Assembly: GCF_000430785.1 (NCBI RefSeq)
Contig: NZ_KE387247.1
Coordinates: forward strand, 86,301 to 110,300
DNA from: Ectobacillus panaciterrae DSM 19096
GTDB taxonomy: Bacteria; Bacillota; Bacilli; Bacillales; Bacillaceae_G
Direction of reading: 5' to 3'
DNA: 24,000 nucleotides
This document shows positions 263 to 20,220 of this stretch, piece by piece. The position numbers and the translations under genes were made by a program. Below the pieces are notes generated by a model, which was not told the origin of the DNA, did no database searches, and worked only from the letters and a program-made list of their open reading frames with translations. How positions within the stretch are numbered: the stretch's first letter is position 1; each line of letters starts with the position of its first letter.

Positions 263-485
263 AAAAAAGTCCCTACTGATCCAATCAGTAGGGACGATGA
301 TTATCGCGGTACCACCCTAGTTGTAGACAAGTCTACCACTCATGTTTGTTAACGATCATTTGACCGTCTTTCCCTTCATAAAGGATGTTCCTTTACTACG
401 AAAAAGATGCTCCAGGATTGAAATTCGTGTTTATCTTTGTACTGGTTCACACCAACCACCAGCTCTCTGTTACAGGGAAACAACC
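263..485 (-). promoter_or_regulatory. T-box riboswitch leader, copy 1 (gene-proximal), Phe-type specifier
   Basis: Read on the minus strand: AGAGAG GA-motif, GGTTGGTGTGAA distal-loop motif, AGTA, specifier loop GAATTTCAA (UUC at complement 422-420) and CGTTA F-box. The T-box core AGGGTGGTACCGCG is at complement 318-305. The terminator is GTCCCTACTGA-TTGGA-TCAGTAGGGAC plus a T-run (complement 295-263). Confidence 0.85.
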
Positions 486-545
486 ACTACTCTGTTCCTA
501 TCATCACACATGTTATTTTATTGTCATAAGAAACCGCACATATAC

Positions 546-770
546 AAAAAGTCCCTACTGATCCAATCAGTAGGGACGATGATTATCGCGGTACCACCCT
601 AGTTGTAGACAAGTCTACCACTCATGTTTGTTAACGATCATTTGACCGTCTTTCCCTTCATAAAGGATGCTCCTTTACTACGAAAAAGATGCTCCAGGAT
701 TGAAATTCATGTTTATCTTTGTACTGATTCACACCAACCATCAGCTCTCTAAAACAGGGAGATAAGCATT
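546..770 (-). promoter_or_regulatory. T-box riboswitch leader, copy 2 (promoter-proximal), Phe-type specifier
   Basis: Nearly identical to copy 1 at an offset of 282 bp. T-box core at complement 600-587, terminator hairpin 551-577 with a T-run (A-run 546-550 on plus), specifier GAATTTCAA with UUC at complement 704-702. Confidence 0.85.
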
Positions 771-835
771 ACTAAATTCCTTTCATTGCTTTCAATTTAT
801 GAATATAATTTTCATATTTACTAAGTATGTCTTGT

Positions 836-921: not shown

Positions 922-1108
922 CTATATATAAATGATTTATAATTTCGGCGTTTTCATTTGCTATTTCGAACAAAACGGCATTGGCACTTACTTCCTCTCT
1001 CTGGTTTGCCCCTGCATGGGCCACTATAAGGGTTTGACCGCTTCTGCACGCCGCCGGATGCTCTCGCCCCACTATAAAAAGCCGATTTTTTTATTCAGTT
1101 TTATATAG
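922..1108 (+). repeat. MITE-like interspersed element, copy A (187 bp)
   Basis: Starts CTATATA and ends TATATAG. It has imperfect terminal inverted repeats and a shared GC-rich core (CTCTCTGGTTTGCCCCTGCATGGGCCACTATAAGGGTTTGACCGCTTCTGCACGCCGCCGGATG). It aligns along its whole length with copies at 4136-4322, 12944-13139 and 13132-13310. Confidence 0.7.
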
Positions 1109-3899: not shown

Positions 3900-4135
3900 A
3901 AAACAGCCTCCTCATCAAGAATGGTATTATATATTATTTTCTATTTTATGGAAAACATGTACCGTTTAAGGATGTTCAGAAAATTCTCGCAGCAGAATGA
4001 CATCGGGCTCTGACAGTTCTGGATTGTTGCGGTTGCTTGTTGTTAAAAAAACTTAAAATAATTATTTTTTTTAAGTTTTTTAAGTTTACTTTGTAGTTTT
4101 ATGAATATCAATCTTATATAATGATTTCATGATAA

Positions 4136-4322
4136 CTATATATGAGTGAATGATAATTTCGACATTTCCATGTGCTATGTGCAACTAAAAGGGAGTATTG
4201 CATGCTTCTTCTCTCTGGTTTACCCTTGCATGAACTACTACAAAGGTTTGAGCGCTTCTGCACGTCGCCGGATGATCTTTCCCTACTATCAAAAGACGGT
4301 TTTTTTATTCACTTGTATATAT
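4136..4322 (+). repeat. MITE-like interspersed element, copy B (187 bp)
   Basis: The left end is CTATATATGAGTGAATGATAATTTCGACAT. The right end is ...GACGGTTTTTTTATTCACTTGTATATAT, whose reverse complement mirrors the left end. The first 32 nt are identical to copy C. A 23-bp solo end-like fragment (CTTATATAATGATTTCATGATAA, 4113-4135) lies immediately upstream. Confidence 0.75.
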
Positions 4323-4356: not shown

Positions 4357-5145
4357 ATGTATCAAGAACAAAGGCTGACATCGATAAAAACGTATTTGTC
4401 TTCTCATAAAAGCATTACGTTAGAAGAAATATGTGAAATGTTTAGTGTTTCAAAGGATACAGCAAGAAGAGATCTTGTAAAACTCGAAGAACGCGGGGGA
4501 ATCATAAGGATAAAGGGAGGAGCGACACTTCCATCCGCCAATCGGAATTTAATTGATTACAAAGAACGAAAAGCAACCGCAGGCAAAGAACGAATTGCAA
4601 AGAGCGCGTCTTTGTTTATTCACGATGATCATGATTTATTGATCGATACCTCTTCAACTGTCGCTCTTATGGCTAAGTTCATAGGAAACAAACATGTTAA
4701 TGTGATTACAAACTCCATTGATATGGTTGATTTATTAGGAGAGTATACGGATATTCAAACCTTTTTGCTGCCTGGAAAATTCAATAGGAAAAACAGAAAT
4801 GTAACGGGTCCCAGAACAATTGAGACACTGAACGACTACAAAGTTGATCAATTATTTCTTGGAGCATGCGGAATCAGCGGCGAAGGTGTTACCTCTCCCG
4901 ATGAGGAAGAAGCCTTTTTAAAGAAAAAAATGATGAGCTGTGCCCGGCAAGTCATACTGCTGGCTGATCGTTCAAAGTTTGAAAAGGAATTTTTGCACCG
5001 GGTTTGTGATATTACGGACATTGATGTGATTATTACAGATAAATACCCGGATGAAGCTGTAAAGGAAAAAATAAAAGAAAATAATATTCGTTTAATTGTT
5101 ACAGAAGATGAAGAAAGCGAGAGGGAACACAATGAGAAAAATTAA
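4357..5145 (+). CDS. DeoR-family transcriptional regulator
   Basis: 262-aa ORF with a TAAGGAG Shine-Dalgarno at 4341-4347. It has an N-terminal DeoR-type HTH (ITLEEICEMFSVSKDTARRDLVKLEERG) and a C-terminal DeoR sugar-phosphate-binding-like domain. Confidence 0.85.
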   Translation: MYQEQRLTSIKTYLSSHKSITLEEICEMFSVSKDTARRDLVKLEERGGIIRIKGGATLPSANRNLIDYKERKATAGKERIAKSASLFIHDDHDLLIDTSSTVALMAKFIGNKHVNVITNSIDMVDLLGEYTDIQTFLLPGKFNRKNRNVTGPRTIETLNDYKVDQLFLGACGISGEGVTSPDEEEAFLKKKMMSCARQVILLADRSKFEKEFLHRVCDITDIDVIITDKYPDEAVKEKIKENNIRLIVTEDEESEREHNEKN

Positions 5146-8918: not shown

Positions 8919-9080
8919 TGTCGTAATTTAAAAAACATATATTCAAGGCTTATTTGGATCAAGATATGCTCAGGAACTGTTTAAGGCAATTCTTTTATCT
9001 ATGTCTAAACTAATACCGACGAAATCACTACATGAAATAGATCATTTAGTCACAAATTAATTAAAAAAAGGATGGTACTC

Positions 9081-10664: not shown

Positions 10665-10839
10665 ATACTGTAGGTACCATCTGACAGTAAGAAGAATAAT
10701 ATCGGATTGATAATGTTTCCACTTGAATAAATTTTGCTTTTCCATACTGAACACCATCCCTTTTCTAGGTTGATAGTATCAGTATGTTCAAGATTTAGAG
10801 ATTAGTTTTAAGTCAGCTGAAATTTTTGCCCCAGAATCC
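10665..10839 (-). mobile_element. IS6-family insertion sequence remnant (left IR plus the first ~27 transposase codons)
   Basis: The minus strand reads GGATTCTGGGGCAAAAATTT (complement 10839-10820), resembling the IS6-family IR GGTTCTGTTGCAAAGTTT. About 95 nt further on, the ATG at complement 10745 encodes MEKQNLFKWKHYQSDIILLTVRWYLQY, a typical IS6 (IS26/IS257/IS240) transposase N-terminus. Similarity ends abruptly next to the HAD gene stop. Confidence 0.6.
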
Positions 10840-12943: not shown

Positions 12944-13139
12944 CTATATAAATGGAACTAAAAAAATCGACATAAAAACTTTTCTTTTAGGGGGGAGAGA
13001 GCATCCGACTAAGCGTAGAAGCGGTCAAACCCTTTTCGTGGCCCATGCAGGGAGAGAGAGAGGGAGCGAGCGCAGTTTCCCTGTTGTTCTACGTGGCAAA
13101 CGATAGATATGTCGGAATAACAAAGTGGACTTATATATA
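12944..13139 (-). repeat. MITE-like interspersed element, copy D (diverged, ~196 bp)
   Basis: The reverse complement aligns with copies A-C, sharing ...CCCTGCATGGGCCACGAAAAGGGTTTGACCGCTTCT...GGATGCTCTC. Both arms end in ..TCGACAT / ..CCGACAT after CTATATA termini. Confidence 0.65.
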
Positions 13140-13310
13140 AGTGAATAAAAAACCGTTTATAGTGGGAAGAGATGATCCGGCGACGTGCAGAAGCGGTCAA
13201 ACCTTTGTAGTGGTTCATACAAGGGTAAACCAGAGAGAAGAAGCATACCATACTTCCTTTTGGTTGCACATAGCACATAAATGTCGAAATTATCATTCAC
13301 TCATATATAG
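13132..13310 (-). repeat. MITE-like interspersed element, copy C (~179 bp), abutting copy D
   Basis: The reverse complement is near-identical to copy B by eye. It shares the TATATATA at 13132-13139 with the end of copy D. Confidence 0.75.
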
Positions 13311-13416: not shown

Positions 13417-14274
13417 TTACTGTGAACGTCTGCGTCTGGAACTTCCGCGTGAGCGACGGTTAGATATTTGGTTGTCTTTGGATATAAGTAATATTAATAA
13501 GAATATAATCAAGGCTATAAGTATTCTATTAGTATTTGAGTTATTAGCCCTGACATCGCCTTGTAAACCAACAGAGTCAGCATCATTGAGCAATGCTGCA
13601 TGAGCACCTTGTAAACCAACAGAGTCAGCATCATTGAGCAATGCTGCATGAGCATCTTGTAAACCAACAGAGTCAGCATCATTGAGCAATGCTGCATGAG
13701 CATCTTGTAAACCAACAGAGTCAGCATCATTGAACAATGCTACATAAGCATCTTGTAAACCAACAGAGTCAGCATCGTTGAACAATTCTACATAATCATC
13801 TTGTAAACCAACAGAATCAGCATCGTTGGGCAATTCTACATAATCATCTTGTAAATCAACAGAGTCAGCATCGTTGAGCAATTCTACATAATCATCTTGT
13901 AAACCAACAGAGTCAGCATCGTTGAGCAATGCTGCATAATCATCTTGTAAACCAACAGAGTTAGCATTATTGAGCAATGCTGCATAATCATCTTGCAAAC
14001 TAACAGAGTTAGCATTATTGAGTAATTCTGTAAAATCACCTTGCAAACCAACAGAGTTAGCATCATTGAGTAATTCTGCAAAAGTAGCTTGCAAACCAAC
14101 AGAGTTAGCATCATTGAGTAATGTTGCAAAATCACCTTGAATACCACATAACTCTGGAAAGTGTTGTCTAAAGTATTGGCTAATACAATGAATATCATCA
14201 CTTTGATACGTATAGCCAAATTTGTTAGTAGTGTATGGCATATACTTTTGATGATGTTTTTTCCTAGAAGCCAT
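13417..14274 (-). CDS. Tandem-repeat protein with a C-terminal transmembrane anchor and an Arg-rich tail (unknown function)
   Basis: ATG at complement 14274 lies 8 nt after an AGGAG Shine-Dalgarno; the ORF-track TTG start at 14289 contains that Shine-Dalgarno. The 285-aa protein has a 46-aa N-terminal region, then 12 x 16-aa repeats (consensus D-x-x-A-L-L-N-D-A-D-S-V-G-L-Q-D), then ILIALIIFLLILLIS and RRSRGSSRRRRSQ. Confidence 0.7.
   Translation of the reverse strand: MASRKKHHQKYMPYTTNKFGYTYQSDDIHCISQYFRQHFPELCGIQGDFATLLNDANSVGLQATFAELLNDANSVGLQGDFTELLNNANSVSLQDDYAALLNNANSVGLQDDYAALLNDADSVGLQDDYVELLNDADSVDLQDDYVELPNDADSVGLQDDYVELFNDADSVGLQDAYVALFNDADSVGLQDAHAALLNDADSVGLQDAHAALLNDADSVGLQGAHAALLNDADSVGLQGDVRANNSNTNRILIALIIFLLILLISKDNQISNRRSRGSSRRRRSQ
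13561..14136 (-). repeat. 12 contiguous 48-bp in-frame tandem repeats within the CDS
   Basis: The unit is TCAGCATCATTGAGCAATGCTGCATGAGCA(C/T)CTTGTAAACCAACAGAG on the plus strand. Units at the gene's 3' end (13561-13750) are almost identical, and units toward the 5' end diverge progressively. Confidence 0.9.
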
Positions 14275-14360
14275 TTCTTCACTCCTCAATTAAACGCTTA
14301 ATAATACCTATACACATTCAATATATATAAAATTGAACAGATTGCTTGGACAGTCATCAC

Positions 14361-14423: not shown

Positions 14424-14692
14424 TGCTCTTTGGTTTTGCAGTATGAATGACAAGCTCAATTCTTCTATATGATGCAAAGAGGCAAATATCATGGACAAGT
14501 AGCAAATTACATTCTATTTAGAACAAAGAATGAGTGAAGGATTACTGGAATCTGGGTTATGTGAATTTTAATGAGTATCTAGCAGAATACGTTATACTTT
14601 TATTAAAATATAATTAGTCGATGCGTAAAAAGTGCCCGGCTTACGGACTCTTTTTGTACATGTTATATGTCAGATGCGGATTTAATACTTTT

Positions 14693-14735
14693 TTAAGAAA
14701 TGGTTTAGAGAATGTTTAGCTTTATGCGGTACGAT
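14693..14735 (+). promoter_or_regulatory. Phased-hexamer box plus -10 element (candidate response-regulator-dependent promoter), site 1
   Basis: TTAAGA (14693), TTTAGA (14704) and TTTAGC (14715) are spaced exactly 11 bp apart. TACGAT (14730-14735) starts 15 nt after the start of the third hexamer. The architecture and flanking TTTTTAAGAAATG are the same as site 2 at 17265-17307. Confidence 0.5.
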
Positions 14736-14863
14736 TGAAGCAGGATGGAACTCGGATAGAGGAGAATGTCTATGGAAGCTTTTTGGCTGACCAATGTGCG
14801 CTTGGAGACAGAGGGGTATATATGAAGACGGGTTGATTAAAAAATAGAGCCTGCAGATTGTTC

Positions 14864-17231: not shown

Positions 17232-17264
17232 ATAAGAAAAGTTTTCAGCTTTGTTTATAGTTTT

Positions 17265-17307
17265 TTAAGAAATGCTTTAGAGGGAGTTTAGACATGTCCG
17301 ATAAGAT
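17265..17307 (+). promoter_or_regulatory. Phased-hexamer box plus -10 element, site 2 (upstream of the secreted-protein gene)
   Basis: TTAAGA (17265), TTTAGA (17276) and TTTAGA (17287) are spaced 11 bp apart. TAAGAT (17302-17307) starts 15 nt after the start of the third hexamer. It lies 41 nt upstream of ATG 17348. Confidence 0.5.
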
Positions 17308-17347
17308 GAAGTCATGAAAGAAAGCAACCATAAAGGAGAGAAATATA

Positions 17348-18415
17348 ATGAAGCAAAAGAAAAAATTATTGTCTTATGTAGTGTTGACTACGGCTCTTAC
17401 TACTGGATGGGCTTTATACTCTGATGCAGGACAAGCGTATGCAGCTTCGGAAAGCAAAGTGGAATTGCAAACAGCAAAATCCGATACGATTCGTGTCGTG
17501 AAGTTCAATAAATTGAATCCTATCGCATTGGAAATTACGTTCTCTAAACCGATTCCGCAAGAAGATTTGATCTTAAATCAAGCACAGAAAAACTTCGTGT
17601 TCAGTAACGGACTAAAGCTTACGAATGTACCGCAATTAAAAACGGGAGCTGAATCCACTTATATCGTTCCGGTTTCAGTACAAAAGCCGGGAGAGAAATA
17701 TACGCTAACGTATAAAGGAAAGAAAATGCGCACATTTACAGGAAGCAGAGACAAGTTGAAATTGAGTTCAGTGAAACAAGTGACGAATGATACATTCGAA
17801 TTGGAATCATTCCGTTCCAACGGTATCCTTGACTACCAATATGTCGTAGCCGCCGATGCCGAAAAAATGGGGAATCTTGCAGTGACCCTTGATAAACACA
17901 ATAGATATAACGGTGTTCGTTATGATATCATCCCGTCTCTAAGAGATCAAAAAGTAACAATCACTCCGGAAGGCGGAGAACCGATGACAGCCAGCTACGT
18001 ACCATTTACGCAGGCCACTGACGGCAGACAGGCTCCGAAATTCCGTTTGCCTCAAGGCCAAACATTAAAACTGGGCACAAAATACACAGTAATGGCTGAC
18101 TGGGCGATTGTGGAGAAACAGACGTTCATAGCGGCAGATGTAGCACCTCTAGTTATTTCATCAGCCAAGCAGGCAGGTCCTGCAAGTGTTGAAGTCACTT
18201 TGTCGCAAGATCCGAAAGATGAACTGTTCGCTCTTCGTCAAATCAAGTTGACAGCGGAAGACGGCTCAGAACTTCTTGCACAATACAAATTCACATCCCG
18301 CAAAGGCGCTTCCGGTACATTCGATATACTGAATAACAGCGCTTTAAAACCAGGAACAGCATACAAAGTAGAACCGATCGGCGGCTGGGCCGAGGCGGCA
18401 AACGTTACATTGTAG
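17348..18415 (+). CDS. Secreted protein of unknown function with Ig-like beta-rich modules
   Basis: AAAGGAGAG Shine-Dalgarno. Signal peptide MKQKKKLLSYVVLTTALTTGWALYSDAGQAYA/AS. The N- and C-terminal segments resemble each other (..ALEITFSKPIPQEDL.. versus ..SVEVTLSQDPKDEL..). I recall no family match. Confidence 0.8.
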   Translation: MKQKKKLLSYVVLTTALTTGWALYSDAGQAYAASESKVELQTAKSDTIRVVKFNKLNPIALEITFSKPIPQEDLILNQAQKNFVFSNGLKLTNVPQLKTGAESTYIVPVSVQKPGEKYTLTYKGKKMRTFTGSRDKLKLSSVKQVTNDTFELESFRSNGILDYQYVVAADAEKMGNLAVTLDKHNRYNGVRYDIIPSLRDQKVTITPEGGEPMTASYVPFTQATDGRQAPKFRLPQGQTLKLGTKYTVMADWAIVEKQTFIAADVAPLVISSAKQAGPASVEVTLSQDPKDELFALRQIKLTAEDGSELLAQYKFTSRKGASGTFDILNNSALKPGTAYKVEPIGGWAEAANVTL

Positions 18416-19738: not shown

Positions 19739-19950
19739 TGGGTATTCAAATTATCATTCCGTAGCGATTTGGTTTTCAAATATTGAATGGGACTGAAACA
19801 AAATGATTGTAATTTTATGATTTTATATATACAGATTTAACTTTGGTGAAATTTTCATATTGGTAAGGATAGCAGCCTAAACTTTTGGCTATTGTCCTGA
19901 ATAAGGTGATTAAGAATAGAGTATTAAAAAATGAAGGGAGAGAAGTATAC

Positions 19951-20220
19951 ATGATCGATGAGCGTATTATCGGAGGGTTTGGCGGTCCGTTTTTCGGAGG
20001 ATTTGGCCGTCCGTTTTTCGGAGGGTTCGGTCGTCCATTTTTTGGGTTTGGTCGTCCATTTTTTGGAGGATTCGGTTTTCCATTTTTTGCAGGGTTAACA
20101 GCGGGAGCTTTACTTACGCCTGGTTTTGGATACGGTTATCCTTACCCGGCACCGTATCCATGTCCATATCCATCTCCTTATGGCTGTCCATATCCTTATT
20201 CGTATGGTTATGGTTATTAA
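19951..20220 (+). CDS. Small low-complexity Gly/Phe/Pro/Tyr-rich protein (spore-coat-like composition)
   Basis: ATG 19951 lies 8 nt after a GAAGGGAGAG Shine-Dalgarno. The 89-aa protein is MIDERII + five GGFG(R/G/F)PFF repeats (24-bp DNA repeats, 19972-20088) + GFGYGYPYPAPYPCPYPSPYGCPYPYSYGYGY. A clean terminator follows. Confidence 0.65.
   Translation: MIDERIIGGFGGPFFGGFGRPFFGGFGRPFFGFGRPFFGGFGFPFFAGLTAGALLTPGFGYGYPYPAPYPCPYPSPYGCPYPYSYGYGY

What the first reader, a model, noticed from the sequence alone, without database searches (positions are those of the whole stretch)
4136..4322. Unrecognised MITE-like element family: four intergenic copies in 24 kb
The copies are at 922-1108 (+), 4136-4322 (+), 12944-13139 (-) and 13132-13310 (-), and they align end to end. 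Each starts CTATATA and ends TATATAG. Each carries imperfect terminal inverted repeats of about 30 nt. In copy B the left arm is CTATATATGAGTGAATGATAATTTCGACAT, and the reverse complement of the right arm is ATATATACAAGTGAATAAAAAAACCGTC. In copy D the right arm reads CTATATAAATGGAACTAAAAAAATCGACAT. A GC-rich core is conserved: CTCTCTGG..CCC(T)TGCATG..AAGGGTTTGACCGCTTCTGCACG.CGCCGGATG. B and C are near-identical (their first 32 nt are the same), while A and D are clearly diverged, so these look like old subfamilies. No reading frame is conserved, because frames open in B and C are stopped in A and D. One compensatory difference in the core, CCCT...AGGG in A/D versus CCTT...AAGG in B/C, hints at a conserved hairpin. 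Copies A and B face the same way as the next gene and end 107 and 35 bp before its start, so they could contribute promoter or 5' UTR sequence. A solo end-like fragment sits at 4113-4135. I cannot match the ends to any IS family or RNA family I know.
Basis: seen in the sequence. Interest (0 to 1): 0.7.

Follow-up and report, generated by a model that had tools for sequence, protein, structure and literature searches.

The report
Undescribed MITE-like repeat family, Bacillaceae
A ~190-bp non-coding repeat with inverted ends sits at four intergenic spots in this Ectobacillus panaciterrae window and has relatives in another Ectobacillus, soil metagenomes and Bacillus cereus-group plasmids; it is an ordinary kind of element (a miniature transposon-like repeat), but this family appears to be unannotated and undescribed.

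Summary
Four copies of a 179-196-nt element lie at the stated coordinates. A 19-nt core motif occurs 4 times against 0.01 expected by chance. The window comes from Ectobacillus panaciterrae.

The same family occurs about 6 times in 20.7 kb of another Ectobacillus species and once in Bacillus rhizoplanae. It is on 34 B. cereus-group plasmids and has 24 copies in 97 kb of soil-metagenome contigs. Every copy is intergenic and none is annotated.

The termini are a 9-nt perfect inverted repeat, TATATAAAT...ATTTATATA, which extends imperfectly to about 30 nt. The two arms co-vary, and this survives both controls. There is no conserved ORF, no conserved RNA fold (0 pairs on 20 sequences) and no Rfam hit.

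Evidence for movement is indirect:
- copies sit at non-orthologous sites in different species;
- one orthologous gap holds copies in opposite orientations;
- head-to-tail arrays share a single TATATA;
- subfamilies cut across species;
- one locus holds a recombinant hybrid copy.

No clean empty site, unambiguous target duplication or partner transposase was found.

The family is not bcr1. A distinct bcr1-like element (about 146 nt, TTTAT duplication) coexists with it and shares no sequence. Relation to bcr2-18 could not be tested.

Verdict: a new member of a known kind, of modest interest. One real oddity remains: the internal core is better conserved than the ends.

The parts
922..1108 (+). 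Copy A (187 nt), full length. It lies in the gap between the tandem T-box leaders (minus strand) and a GDSL-lipase gene (plus strand, starts at 1215).
   Evidence: nhmmer E=2e-57. Left arm about 922-950, right arm about 1081-1108. A Logan k=31 contig ends at 1078, and the 31-mer 1077-1107 is unique in the window, so an identical right end exists elsewhere in the genome.
4136..4322 (+). Copy B (187 nt), full length. It lies in the divergent gap between an FAD/Rieske oxidoreductase gene (minus strand) and a DeoR regulator gene (plus strand, starts at 4357).
   Evidence: E=1e-58. Left arm 4136-4165, right arm 4295-4322. Logan contigs break at 4163 and 4293. The 31-mer 4292-4322 is unique in the window.
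13132..13310 (-). Copy C (179 nt), of the B subfamily (92% identical to B). It sits head-to-tail with D and shares one TATATATA with it (13132-13139).
   Evidence: (E=3e-53).
12944..13139 (-). Copy D (196 nt), a diverged subfamily. It has the long right arm (extra GTTTTTATGTCG) and a 5-nt deletion in the CT-rich block. It is closest to copies in other species.
   Evidence: E=4e-47; 75% to E3 of Ectobacillus sp., 68% to M1 of B. mycoides, 65-66% to B and C. A Logan contig breaks at 12985.
1031..1049 (+). Conserved core motif in A (GGTTTGACCGCTTCTGCAC). It is part of the roughly 40-nt block that is the best conserved part of the family.
4245..4263 (+). Conserved core motif in B.
13185..13203 (-). 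Conserved core motif in C.
13013..13031 (-). Conserved core motif in D.

Best explanation
These are four copies of a non-autonomous, non-coding interspersed DNA repeat of the MITE type, about 155-210 bp long. The family is carried by some Ectobacillus species and by relatives in the Bacillus cereus clade.

Shown:
- Each copy is bounded by terminal inverted repeats of about 30 nt. These have a perfect 9-nt tip (TATATAAAT...ATTTATATA) and an inner (C/T)(G/A)ACAT box.
- The element encodes nothing.
- It lies only in intergenic DNA.
- It occurs at different loci in different genomes.

Inferred: copies are moved in trans by an enzyme encoded elsewhere that recognises both arms. That would explain why the arms co-evolve. 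Insertion goes into TA-rich (TATATA-like) intergenic sequence. This would explain why an existing copy's end is itself a preferred target, so that arrays form in which neighbours share a single TATATA. The duplicated target is probably TA or TATA, hidden inside the palindromic tip.

Once present, copies act as substrates for homologous recombination and as landing pads for other small repeats.

The strongly conserved internal core is most likely a cis-acting site needed for mobilisation. This step is inference only.
For: 1. Multi-copy and dispersed:
- 4 copies in this 24-kb window.
- About 6 in 20.7 kb of Ectobacillus sp. MAG L036.
- 1 in B. rhizoplanae.
- 34 B. cereus-group plasmids.
- 24 hits in 97 kb of metagenome contigs.
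- Short-read contigs 100% identical to the window break inside A-right, B-right and D-right. The 31-mers there are unique in the window, which implies further copies in the genome.

2. Sharp boundaries. Flanks are unrelated, while the element aligns from TATATA to TATATA.

3. The terminal repeats are real and co-vary:
- 87.5% of cells are paired against 78% in shuffles (0/500 reach this).
- The covariation score is 0.34 against 0.18 (0/500).
- Slid registers give 21-62% paired.
- 4 pairs change on both sides.

4. Not coding. The frame shared by A, B and C is broken in D and by an in-frame TGA in the L036 copies. A protein search found one weak hit.

5. Not a structured RNA:
- No Rfam match at gathering or permissive thresholds.
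- Consensus fold is -4.5 and -2.9 kcal/mol on 8 sequences.
- Zero pairs are predicted on 20 sequences.

6. All 25 loci examined are intergenic.

7. Dynamics:
- The orthologous gap in L059 and L066 (flanks about 80% identical) holds copies in opposite orientation and with different truncations.
- The head-to-tail junctions C/D and E1/E2 share one TATATA.
- C is 92% identical to B, which lies 9 kb away, but only 66% identical to its immediate neighbour D.
- Subfamilies cross species boundaries.
- L055 carries a hybrid of the two tandem copies seen in L046.
- Another repeat is nested inside copy G14.
Against: - No clean filled-versus-empty pair was found for this family. The T7SS and B. thuringiensis loci are filled in all relatives. 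The nrdD locus is too diverged to read a junction. Synteny around the window is lost even in the closest available relatives.
- No copy-specific target duplication is visible. TA or TATA duplication is only compatible with the data, not shown, because the tips are palindromic.
- No transposase lies in the window. No pair of arms brackets a larger element in about 400 kb of held DNA.
- The interior core is better conserved than the arms. That is unusual for a MITE and hints at some other constraint.
- Adjacent copies are always head-to-tail. A symmetric terminal-repeat mechanism would not by itself produce that.
Confidence: 0.75

Rival explanations
1. The element is mobile but is not moved by a DDE transposase acting on terminal repeats. 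It spreads by site-specific recombination at a short AT-rich crossover sequence (TATATA), as has been proposed for the bcr repeats of the B. cereus group at TTTAT. The shared TATATA at array junctions would then be the crossover site, not a duplicated target.
For: - Adjacent copies are always head-to-tail and are separated by exactly one TATATA(T). Serial site-specific integration would produce this.
- No variable target duplication is seen.
- A truncated copy lies about 800 nt from an annotated site-specific integrase gene in L050.
Against: - The co-varying 12-pair terminal inverted repeat is what a transposase binding both ends predicts. A simple crossover site does not need it.
- No recombinase is consistently nearby.
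- Opposite orientations at one orthologous gap are easy for a symmetric transposon and harder for a directional att-type reaction. The palindromic site would, however, allow both.
Confidence: 0.15
2. The element is primarily a functional module that has been copied around the genome. Its conserved core would be a weak outward promoter (TTGACC-17-GATGCT) or a protein-binding site, or the element would be a cis-regulatory or small RNA. Its inverted ends would be secondary.
For: - The core is the best conserved segment (81-90% per column; GACCGCTTCT is nearly invariant in 20 copies from at least 4 taxa).
- TTGACC lies exactly 17 nt before GAT.CT.
- A and B lie 107 and 35 nt upstream of co-oriented genes.
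- The bcr1-3 repeats are often co-transcribed as UTRs in B. cereus (PMC3446304).
Against: - There is no orientation bias relative to genes (5 sense, 4 antisense).
- Copies sit in convergent gaps, and one sits antisense inside a T7SS operon.
- The -10 hexamer matches only 3-4 of 6, and many B. cereus-group copies have CTGACC at -35.
- The promoter scan found no excess over shuffles.
- There is no conserved RNA fold and no Rfam hit.
- Some copies delete the core altogether (G3, E6).
Confidence: 0.08
3. The element is a small protein-coding gene family of 58-65 aa (...CY..G...F.SLV.PCM..YKGL.ASARRR...).
For: A, B and C keep the same frame open with 24 invariant residues.
Against: - D is frameshifted.
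- The L036 copies read GGTTTTGACC, which gives an in-frame TGA.
- The reverse-strand ORFs are not in a conserved frame either. This comes from reading the alignment.
- A profile search of 5.8 billion proteins gave one marginal 37-aa hit.
- Nucleotide identity between these three closely related copies is enough to explain the shared frame.
Confidence: 0.02

Closest known systems
bcr Group A repeats (bcr1-bcr3) of the Bacillus cereus group (Okstad 2004; Klevan 2007; Kristoffersen 2011; as summarised in PMC3184786, PMC3446304, PMC6199540, PMC6542083)
   Same: - Both are short (100-400 bp), non-coding, intergenic, multi-copy, MITE-like repeats in the same bacterial clade.
- Both have many partial copies.
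- Both have AT-rich ends containing TTTAT-like sequence.
- No transposase is known for either.
- This family has homologues in B. mycoides, B. thuringiensis, B. cereus, B. pseudomycoides and B. rhizoplanae.
   Different: It is not bcr1. A separate element in the same contigs matches all three bcr1 hallmarks I could find in the literature:
- about 146 nt long;
- a duplicated GATAAAG, which is CTTTATC on the other strand;
- two long stem-loops.

That element shares no sequence with this family.

This family is 179-212 nt long. Its left flank is not TTTAT, and it has no conserved stem-loops. It also occurs outside the B. cereus group, in Ectobacillus, whereas bcr1 is described as specific to that group. 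Identity with bcr2-bcr18 could not be checked, because the consensus sequences are not in the held literature.
Correia elements (CREE/NEMIS) of Neisseria
   Same: - Both are 100-160-bp-class non-autonomous repeats.
- Both have terminal inverted repeats of about 26-30 nt that begin TATA...
- Both insert at TA-type targets.
- Both are intergenic and reach very high copy density.
- No cognate transposase has been identified for either.

The Correia features are from my own knowledge, not tested here.
   Different: The host phylum is different. No sequence similarity is expected, and none was tested. Correia elements fold into a long hairpin RNA and carry defined promoter and IHF sites. This family has no conserved fold and no demonstrated promoter.
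RUP (repeat unit of pneumococcus), mobilised by IS630-Spn1
   Same: Both are Firmicutes MITEs with terminal inverted repeats. RUP has a TA target duplication, a model that the TA-rich palindromic tips here are compatible with. The RUP features are from my own knowledge.
   Different: RUP is 107 bp long and has a known partner IS with matching ends. No partner IS was found here, and TA duplication is not shown.

Membership tests
MITE (miniature inverted-repeat transposable element) | Small size (under about 300-400 bp) and no coding capacity | tested here: met
   Copies are 155-212 nt. The frame shared by A, B and C is broken in D and in other species. The protein search was essentially empty.
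MITE (miniature inverted-repeat transposable element) | Terminal inverted repeats | tested here: met
   The tip is a 9-nt perfect repeat, TATATAAAT/ATTTATATA, extending to about 30 nt. A 12-pair terminal helix is 87.5% paired, with covariation above all 500 shuffles and above all slid registers.
MITE (miniature inverted-repeat transposable element) | Multiple dispersed copies at non-orthologous sites | tested here: met
   more than 40 copies in at least 4 taxa, with different neighbouring genes.
MITE (miniature inverted-repeat transposable element) | Target-site duplication flanking each copy | tested here: inconclusive
   No copy-specific direct repeat lies outside the tips. TA, TATA or TATATA duplication is possible but is masked by the palindromic ends. 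Array junctions share one TATATA.
MITE (miniature inverted-repeat transposable element) | Insertion polymorphism (filled versus empty alleles) | tested here: inconclusive
   Four loci were compared and none gave a clean empty site. Indirect signs are opposite orientation at an orthologous gap and a recombinant hybrid copy.
MITE (miniature inverted-repeat transposable element) | Autonomous IS with matching terminal repeats | not testable with these tools
   No ISfinder access. No transposase lies in the window. No arm pair brackets a larger insert in about 400 kb of held DNA. The nearby IS6 and IS4 genes on plasmids are not bounded by these arms.
bcr1 (B. cereus repeat 1) | Length of about 155 bp | tested here: not met
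   Window copies are 179-196 nt. The bcr1 size is from PMC3184786.
bcr1 (B. cereus repeat 1) | Flanking 5-bp TTTAT direct repeat | tested here: not met
   Left flanks read (C/T)TATATA and are not preceded by TTTAT. TTTAT is present only within the right tip. The feature is from PMC6542083 and PMC6199540.
bcr1 (B. cereus repeat 1) | [quoted passage not shown] | tested here: not met
   RNAalifold predicts 0 pairs on 20 copies. The internal helices are marginal. The feature is from PMC3184786.
bcr1 (B. cereus repeat 1) | Sequence similarity to bcr1 | tested here: not met
   This was a proxy test only. The bcr1-like element of L065 (about 146 nt, TTTAT-containing duplication, two stem-loops) has no significant BLAST match to any copy of this family. 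A true bcr1 consensus was not available.
bcr2-bcr18 | Sequence similarity to the published consensus | not testable with these tools
   Kristoffersen 2011 and Okstad 2004 are not held. No held paper prints the sequences.
Any Rfam RNA family | Covariance-model match | tested here: not met
   Nothing was found at gathering thresholds in the window. At E<=10 on the window copies and E<=1 on the B. mycoides variants, only chance-level hits appeared.

The most novel reading that the evidence does not exclude
The roughly 40-nt internal core (…GGnTTTGACCGCTTCT…GCCGGATGCTCTCTCCC…) would be a functional module in its own right, under selection. It could be a protein-binding site or a weak outward promoter. 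It is conserved across genera more strongly than the transposition ends. If so, the family would be a mobile regulatory cassette seeded at perhaps hundreds of intergenic sites per genome. It might also be moved by a mechanism not yet described for bacterial MITEs, since arrays are directional and share a single TATATA.
Probability: 0.12. Interest if true: 0.6.

Novelty: new member of a known kind. Interest (0 to 1): 0.33.

Why it matters
Practical points:
- The family fragments short-read assemblies of these genomes. Contigs break at every copy.
- It is unannotated in every record examined.
- Its incidental ORFs could be miscalled as genes.

Biological points:
- It shows that small MITE-like repeats of the B. 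cereus clade are not confined to that group. They reach high density in some Ectobacillus species: about one locus per 7-9 kb in the carriers sampled. If that density held genome-wide it would mean hundreds of loci, but this is an extrapolation from small samples.
- E. funiculus and E. ponti showed none in about 20 kb each, so carriage is patchy.
- The copies visibly drive local rearrangement, with hybrid copies, nested insertions and repeat mosaics. That makes them candidate markers for strain typing and agents of genome plasticity.
- The unusually conserved core is a concrete handle for finding the mobilising enzyme or a host function.

Tried and rejected
1. My first genome-collection scan used a 19-nt degenerate core. 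That was too short for 596 Gb and returned mostly chance hits.
2. The first metagenome pattern (34 nt, window variants only) found nothing. A broadened pattern later found 12 loci. The viral contig scan found none.
3. Window copy B gave no match against plasmids or phages. The link to plasmids appeared only through the B. rhizoplanae copy.
4. I used the element's incidental ORF to find other copies through the protein database. That failed.
5. I searched for empty sites through orthologues of the central NRDE/TANGO2 gene in seven relatives. Synteny is not conserved, so no orthologous gaps could be compared.
6. I searched for empty sites on plasmids:
   - the T7SS locus is filled in all 8 plasmids;
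   - the B. thuringiensis locus is filled in all relatives;
   - the nrdD locus is too diverged for a junction.
7. Literature search for bcr sequences: the key papers are not held. Full-text searches for literal core fragments returned only unrelated primers.
8. The structured-RNA hypothesis is rejected.
9. The coding hypothesis is rejected.
10. Promoter or terminator function: scans are at chance level.
11. An IS200/IS605-type (HUH, single-strand) mechanism was considered and set aside. The ends are true inverted repeats rather than subterminal hairpins, and copies lie on both strands within 24 kb.
12. The search for an autonomous partner by isolated arms found none.

Full report
OBSERVATION

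They align end to end with 79% mean column identity. B and C share an identical 34-nt left end and are 92% identical overall. A is 78-79% identical to them, and D is 65-71% identical to the others. A 19-nt core motif occurs four times in the window, against 0.01 expected by chance.

Some details need correcting:
- Only A has both CTATATA and TATATAG at its ends.
- The 'solo end' at 4113-4135 does not score against a profile of the family's arms even at E<=100.

SOURCE AND CONTEXT

A window protein is 100% identical to an NRDE-family protein of Ectobacillus panaciterrae. The window holds ordinary chromosomal genes and no transposase. These genes include a GDSL lipase, an FAD/Rieske oxidoreductase, a DeoR regulator, an alkaline phosphatase, a two-component system and GerA.

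Short-read (k=31) contigs from two public runs are 100% identical to the window. They stop at 1078, 4163, 4293 and 12985, which is about 30 nt inside copies A, B and D. The break at 4163 is explained by the B/C identity. The 31-mers at the other three positions occur only once in the window. Identical arm sequences must therefore exist elsewhere in the genome. This is an inference from assembly behaviour, not a direct count.

THE FAMILY ELSEWHERE

I built an nhmmer profile from the four copies. It finds:
- about six copies in 20.7 kb of a different Ectobacillus species (MAG GCA_048976805.1, locus L036), three of them in a head-to-tail cluster;
- one copy in Bacillus rhizoplanae;
- none in about 20 kb each of E. 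funiculus, E. ponti and an unclassified Bacillota MAG.

The B. rhizoplanae copy led to full-length homologues on B. mycoides plasmids. One of those, used as a query, matched 34 plasmids of B. mycoides, B. thuringiensis, B. cereus, B. pseudomycoides and B. arachidis. The matches fall into several length variants of about 200 nt, about 150 nt and truncated forms. A broadened core pattern recovered 12 soil-metagenome contigs carrying 24 copies in 97 kb.

None of these copies is annotated. All 25 loci examined are intergenic.

ANATOMY

With more than 20 copies the ends are clear. There is a perfect 9-nt terminal inverted repeat, TATATAAAT...ATTTATATA, continuing imperfectly to about 30 nt with an inner (C/T)(G/A)ACAT box. 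On an eight-sequence, three-species alignment the 12-pair terminal helix gave these results:
- 87.5% of cells are paired, against 78% in column shuffles (0/500 reach this).
- The covariation score is 0.34 against 0.18 (0/500).
- Four pairs change on both sides.
- Slid registers give 21-62% paired.

So the two arms co-evolve.

Between the arms lie a CT-rich block and a core of about 40 nt (…GGnTTTGACCGCTTCT…GCCGGATGCTCTCTCCC…). The core is the best conserved part of the element, at 81-90% per column, and GACCGCTTCT is nearly invariant.

Two right-arm types exist. D carries the long type shared with the other Ectobacillus species, B. rhizoplanae and B. mycoides. D is closer to those copies (68-75%) than to B and C in its own genome (65-66%). 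The subfamilies therefore predate or cross species boundaries.

WHAT IT IS NOT

Not a gene:
- The frame shared by A, B and C is frameshifted in D.
- It carries an in-frame TGA in the second Ectobacillus species, which reads GGTTTTGACC.
- A profile search of 5.8 billion proteins returned one marginal hit.

Not a known or structured RNA:
- Rfam gives nothing at gathering or permissive thresholds, for the window copies or for the B. mycoides variants.
- Consensus folding energies are -4.5 and -2.9 kcal/mol on the two strands.
- With 20 sequences RNAalifold predicts no pairs at all.
- The internal helices RNAalifold proposed are mostly invariant or G-U pairs and only marginally beat shuffles.

Not a consistent promoter or terminator:
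- Consensus scans are at chance level.
- A conserved TTGACC lies 17 nt before GAT.CT, but the -10 hexamer matches only 3-4 of 6. Many B. cereus-group copies have CTGACC instead.
- Orientation relative to genes is unbiased. In co-directional gaps 5 copies are sense and 4 antisense.
- A and B lie in divergent gaps, where either orientation would face a gene.

EVIDENCE FOR MOVEMENT (INDIRECT)

1. Copies occupy unrelated loci in different species.
2. In one orthologous gap, with flanks about 80% identical (L059 and L066), the element is present in opposite orientations and with different truncations.
3. Head-to-tail junctions (C/D in the window, E1/E2 in L036) share a single TATATA. This is expected if the TA-rich tip of a resident copy is itself the preferred target.
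4. C is 92% identical to B, 9 kb away, but only 66% identical to its immediate neighbour D. So C and D are not a local duplication.
5. Copies recombine. B. mycoides SIN3.1 has two tandem copies upstream of an M60 peptidase gene. Bacillus sp. DX3.1 has one hybrid copy at the same place, with both outer flanks intact.
6. Copies are landing pads. In L059 the left arm of one copy is displaced about 330 nt by nested repeat DNA.

WHAT IS MISSING

I found no clean empty site for this family:
- The T7SS and B. thuringiensis plasmid loci are filled in every relative.
- The nrdD locus is too diverged to read a junction.
- Synteny around the window is lost even in the nearest available relatives.

The tips are palindromic and no copy-specific direct repeat lies outside them. 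The target duplication (TA, TATA or TATATA) therefore remains unresolved. No pair of arms brackets a larger element in about 400 kb of held DNA, so no autonomous partner is known.

RELATION TO KNOWN ELEMENTS

The obvious comparison is the bcr1-bcr18 repeats of the B. cereus group. Among these, bcr1-3 are described as MITE-like, often co-transcribed, and associated with TTTAT. The consensus sequences are not in the held literature, so direct membership could not be tested.

By chance, two 99.7%-identical metagenome contigs differ by a 146-nt insertion. The insertion is flanked by a duplicated GATAAAG, which is CTTTATC on the other strand and so contains TTTAT. It has two long stem-loops. That matches the three published bcr1 hallmarks I could find. 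This second element occurs next to our family in B. rhizoplanae, on B. mycoides plasmids and in the metagenome contigs. It is absent from the window and shares no significant sequence with our family. I conclude that our family is not bcr1. Whether its B. cereus-group relatives correspond to another numbered bcr remains open.

In how it works, the closest analogues are TA-targeting MITEs such as Neisseria Correia elements and pneumococcal RUP. That comparison rests on my own knowledge and was not tested here.

MECHANISM, WITH CONFIDENCE

I put the probability at about 0.75 that this is a non-autonomous mobile repeat of the MITE type. The specific mechanism is inference, and I give it about 0.35: a trans-acting transposase binds both co-evolving arms and inserts into TA-rich sequence with a short TA or TATA duplication.

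The main rival is site-specific recombination at TATATA (0.15). It is favoured by the strictly head-to-tail arrays. A functional-module reading of the conserved core is not excluded, but orientation, position and folding data argue against it (0.08). Coding is effectively refuted (0.02).

VERDICT

This is a real, previously unannotated MITE-like repeat family, so it is a new member of a known kind. It is useful for annotation, assembly and strain comparison and is not surprising to a specialist. The one odd feature is that the interior is more conserved than the ends. Interest 0.33.

Noticed in passing
L065 8075-8220 versus L056 about 8934-8940; also L017 4766-4897, L047 (three places), L057, L059, L060, L062, L067: A second, unrelated small repeat shows a clean insertion polymorphism between two 99.7%-identical metagenome contigs. 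It is a 146-nt insertion flanked by a duplicated GATAAAG (CTTTATC on the other strand, so it contains TTTAT), and it has two long stem-loops. This fits the published description of bcr1. It is absent from the window and from L036.
   Followed up: partly
L046 4000-4545 versus L055 about 3990-4180: B. mycoides SIN3.1 has two tandem copies of the family upstream of an M60 peptidase gene. Bacillus sp. DX3.1 has a single hybrid copy (left half of the first, right half of the second) with both outer flanks intact. This is the product of homologous recombination between copies.
   Followed up: yes
L059 1066-1605: One copy is split. Its left arm (1570-1605) is separated from the body (1066-1243) by about 326 nt of nested repeat DNA, including a bcr1-like fragment (1348-1454) and a twice-repeated AAAAGCGGAG.C motif. 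The orthologous gap in L066 holds the family in the opposite orientation.
   Followed up: partly
L048 1500-1674 (NZ_CP128135.1 and seven other B. mycoides plasmids): A short variant of about 150-175 nt sits antisense between essB and esaB inside a type VII secretion operon. Its core is rebuilt into a perfect 11-bp hairpin (GTAACTGACCG...CGGTCAGTTAC). Variant M1b in L046 has a 16-bp version of this hairpin.
   Followed up: partly
window 287-513 and 569-795 (minus strand): Two tandem T-box leaders (Rfam 154 and 159 bits) are 94% identical to each other. They lie upstream of a gene that runs off the left end of the window.
   Followed up: no
window 13560-14146, inside ORF 13417-14289 (minus strand): A 48-nt tandem array (12 copies, 92% matches) encodes 16-aa repeats (...LLNDADSVGLQDDY..) in a 290-aa protein. 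The protein has a C-terminal hydrophobic segment and a basic tail, and no Pfam match. It lies immediately next to copies C and D.
   Followed up: partly
window 19970-20093, inside ORF 19885-20220: Repeats of 21-24 nt encode a Gly/Phe/Pro-rich motif (GFGRPFFGG...) in a 111-aa ORF.
   Followed up: no
window 14682-14750 and 17254-17322: A 69-nt direct repeat (71% identical; TTTTTTAAGAAATG.TTTAGAG...GTTTAG) lies upstream of the histidine-kinase/response-regulator pair and upstream of ORF 17348-18415. It may be a shared regulator-binding region.
   Followed up: no
window 10737-10775: Short-read contigs from two independent runs both break here, although no copy of this family and no obvious repeat is present. 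The cause is unknown. It may be another short genomic repeat.
   Followed up: partly
PLSDB record NZ_CP093325.1: A 5.5-Mb 'plasmid' of Bacillus sp. N5-665 is evidently a chromosome. Three queries from this family found no copy in it.
   Followed up: no
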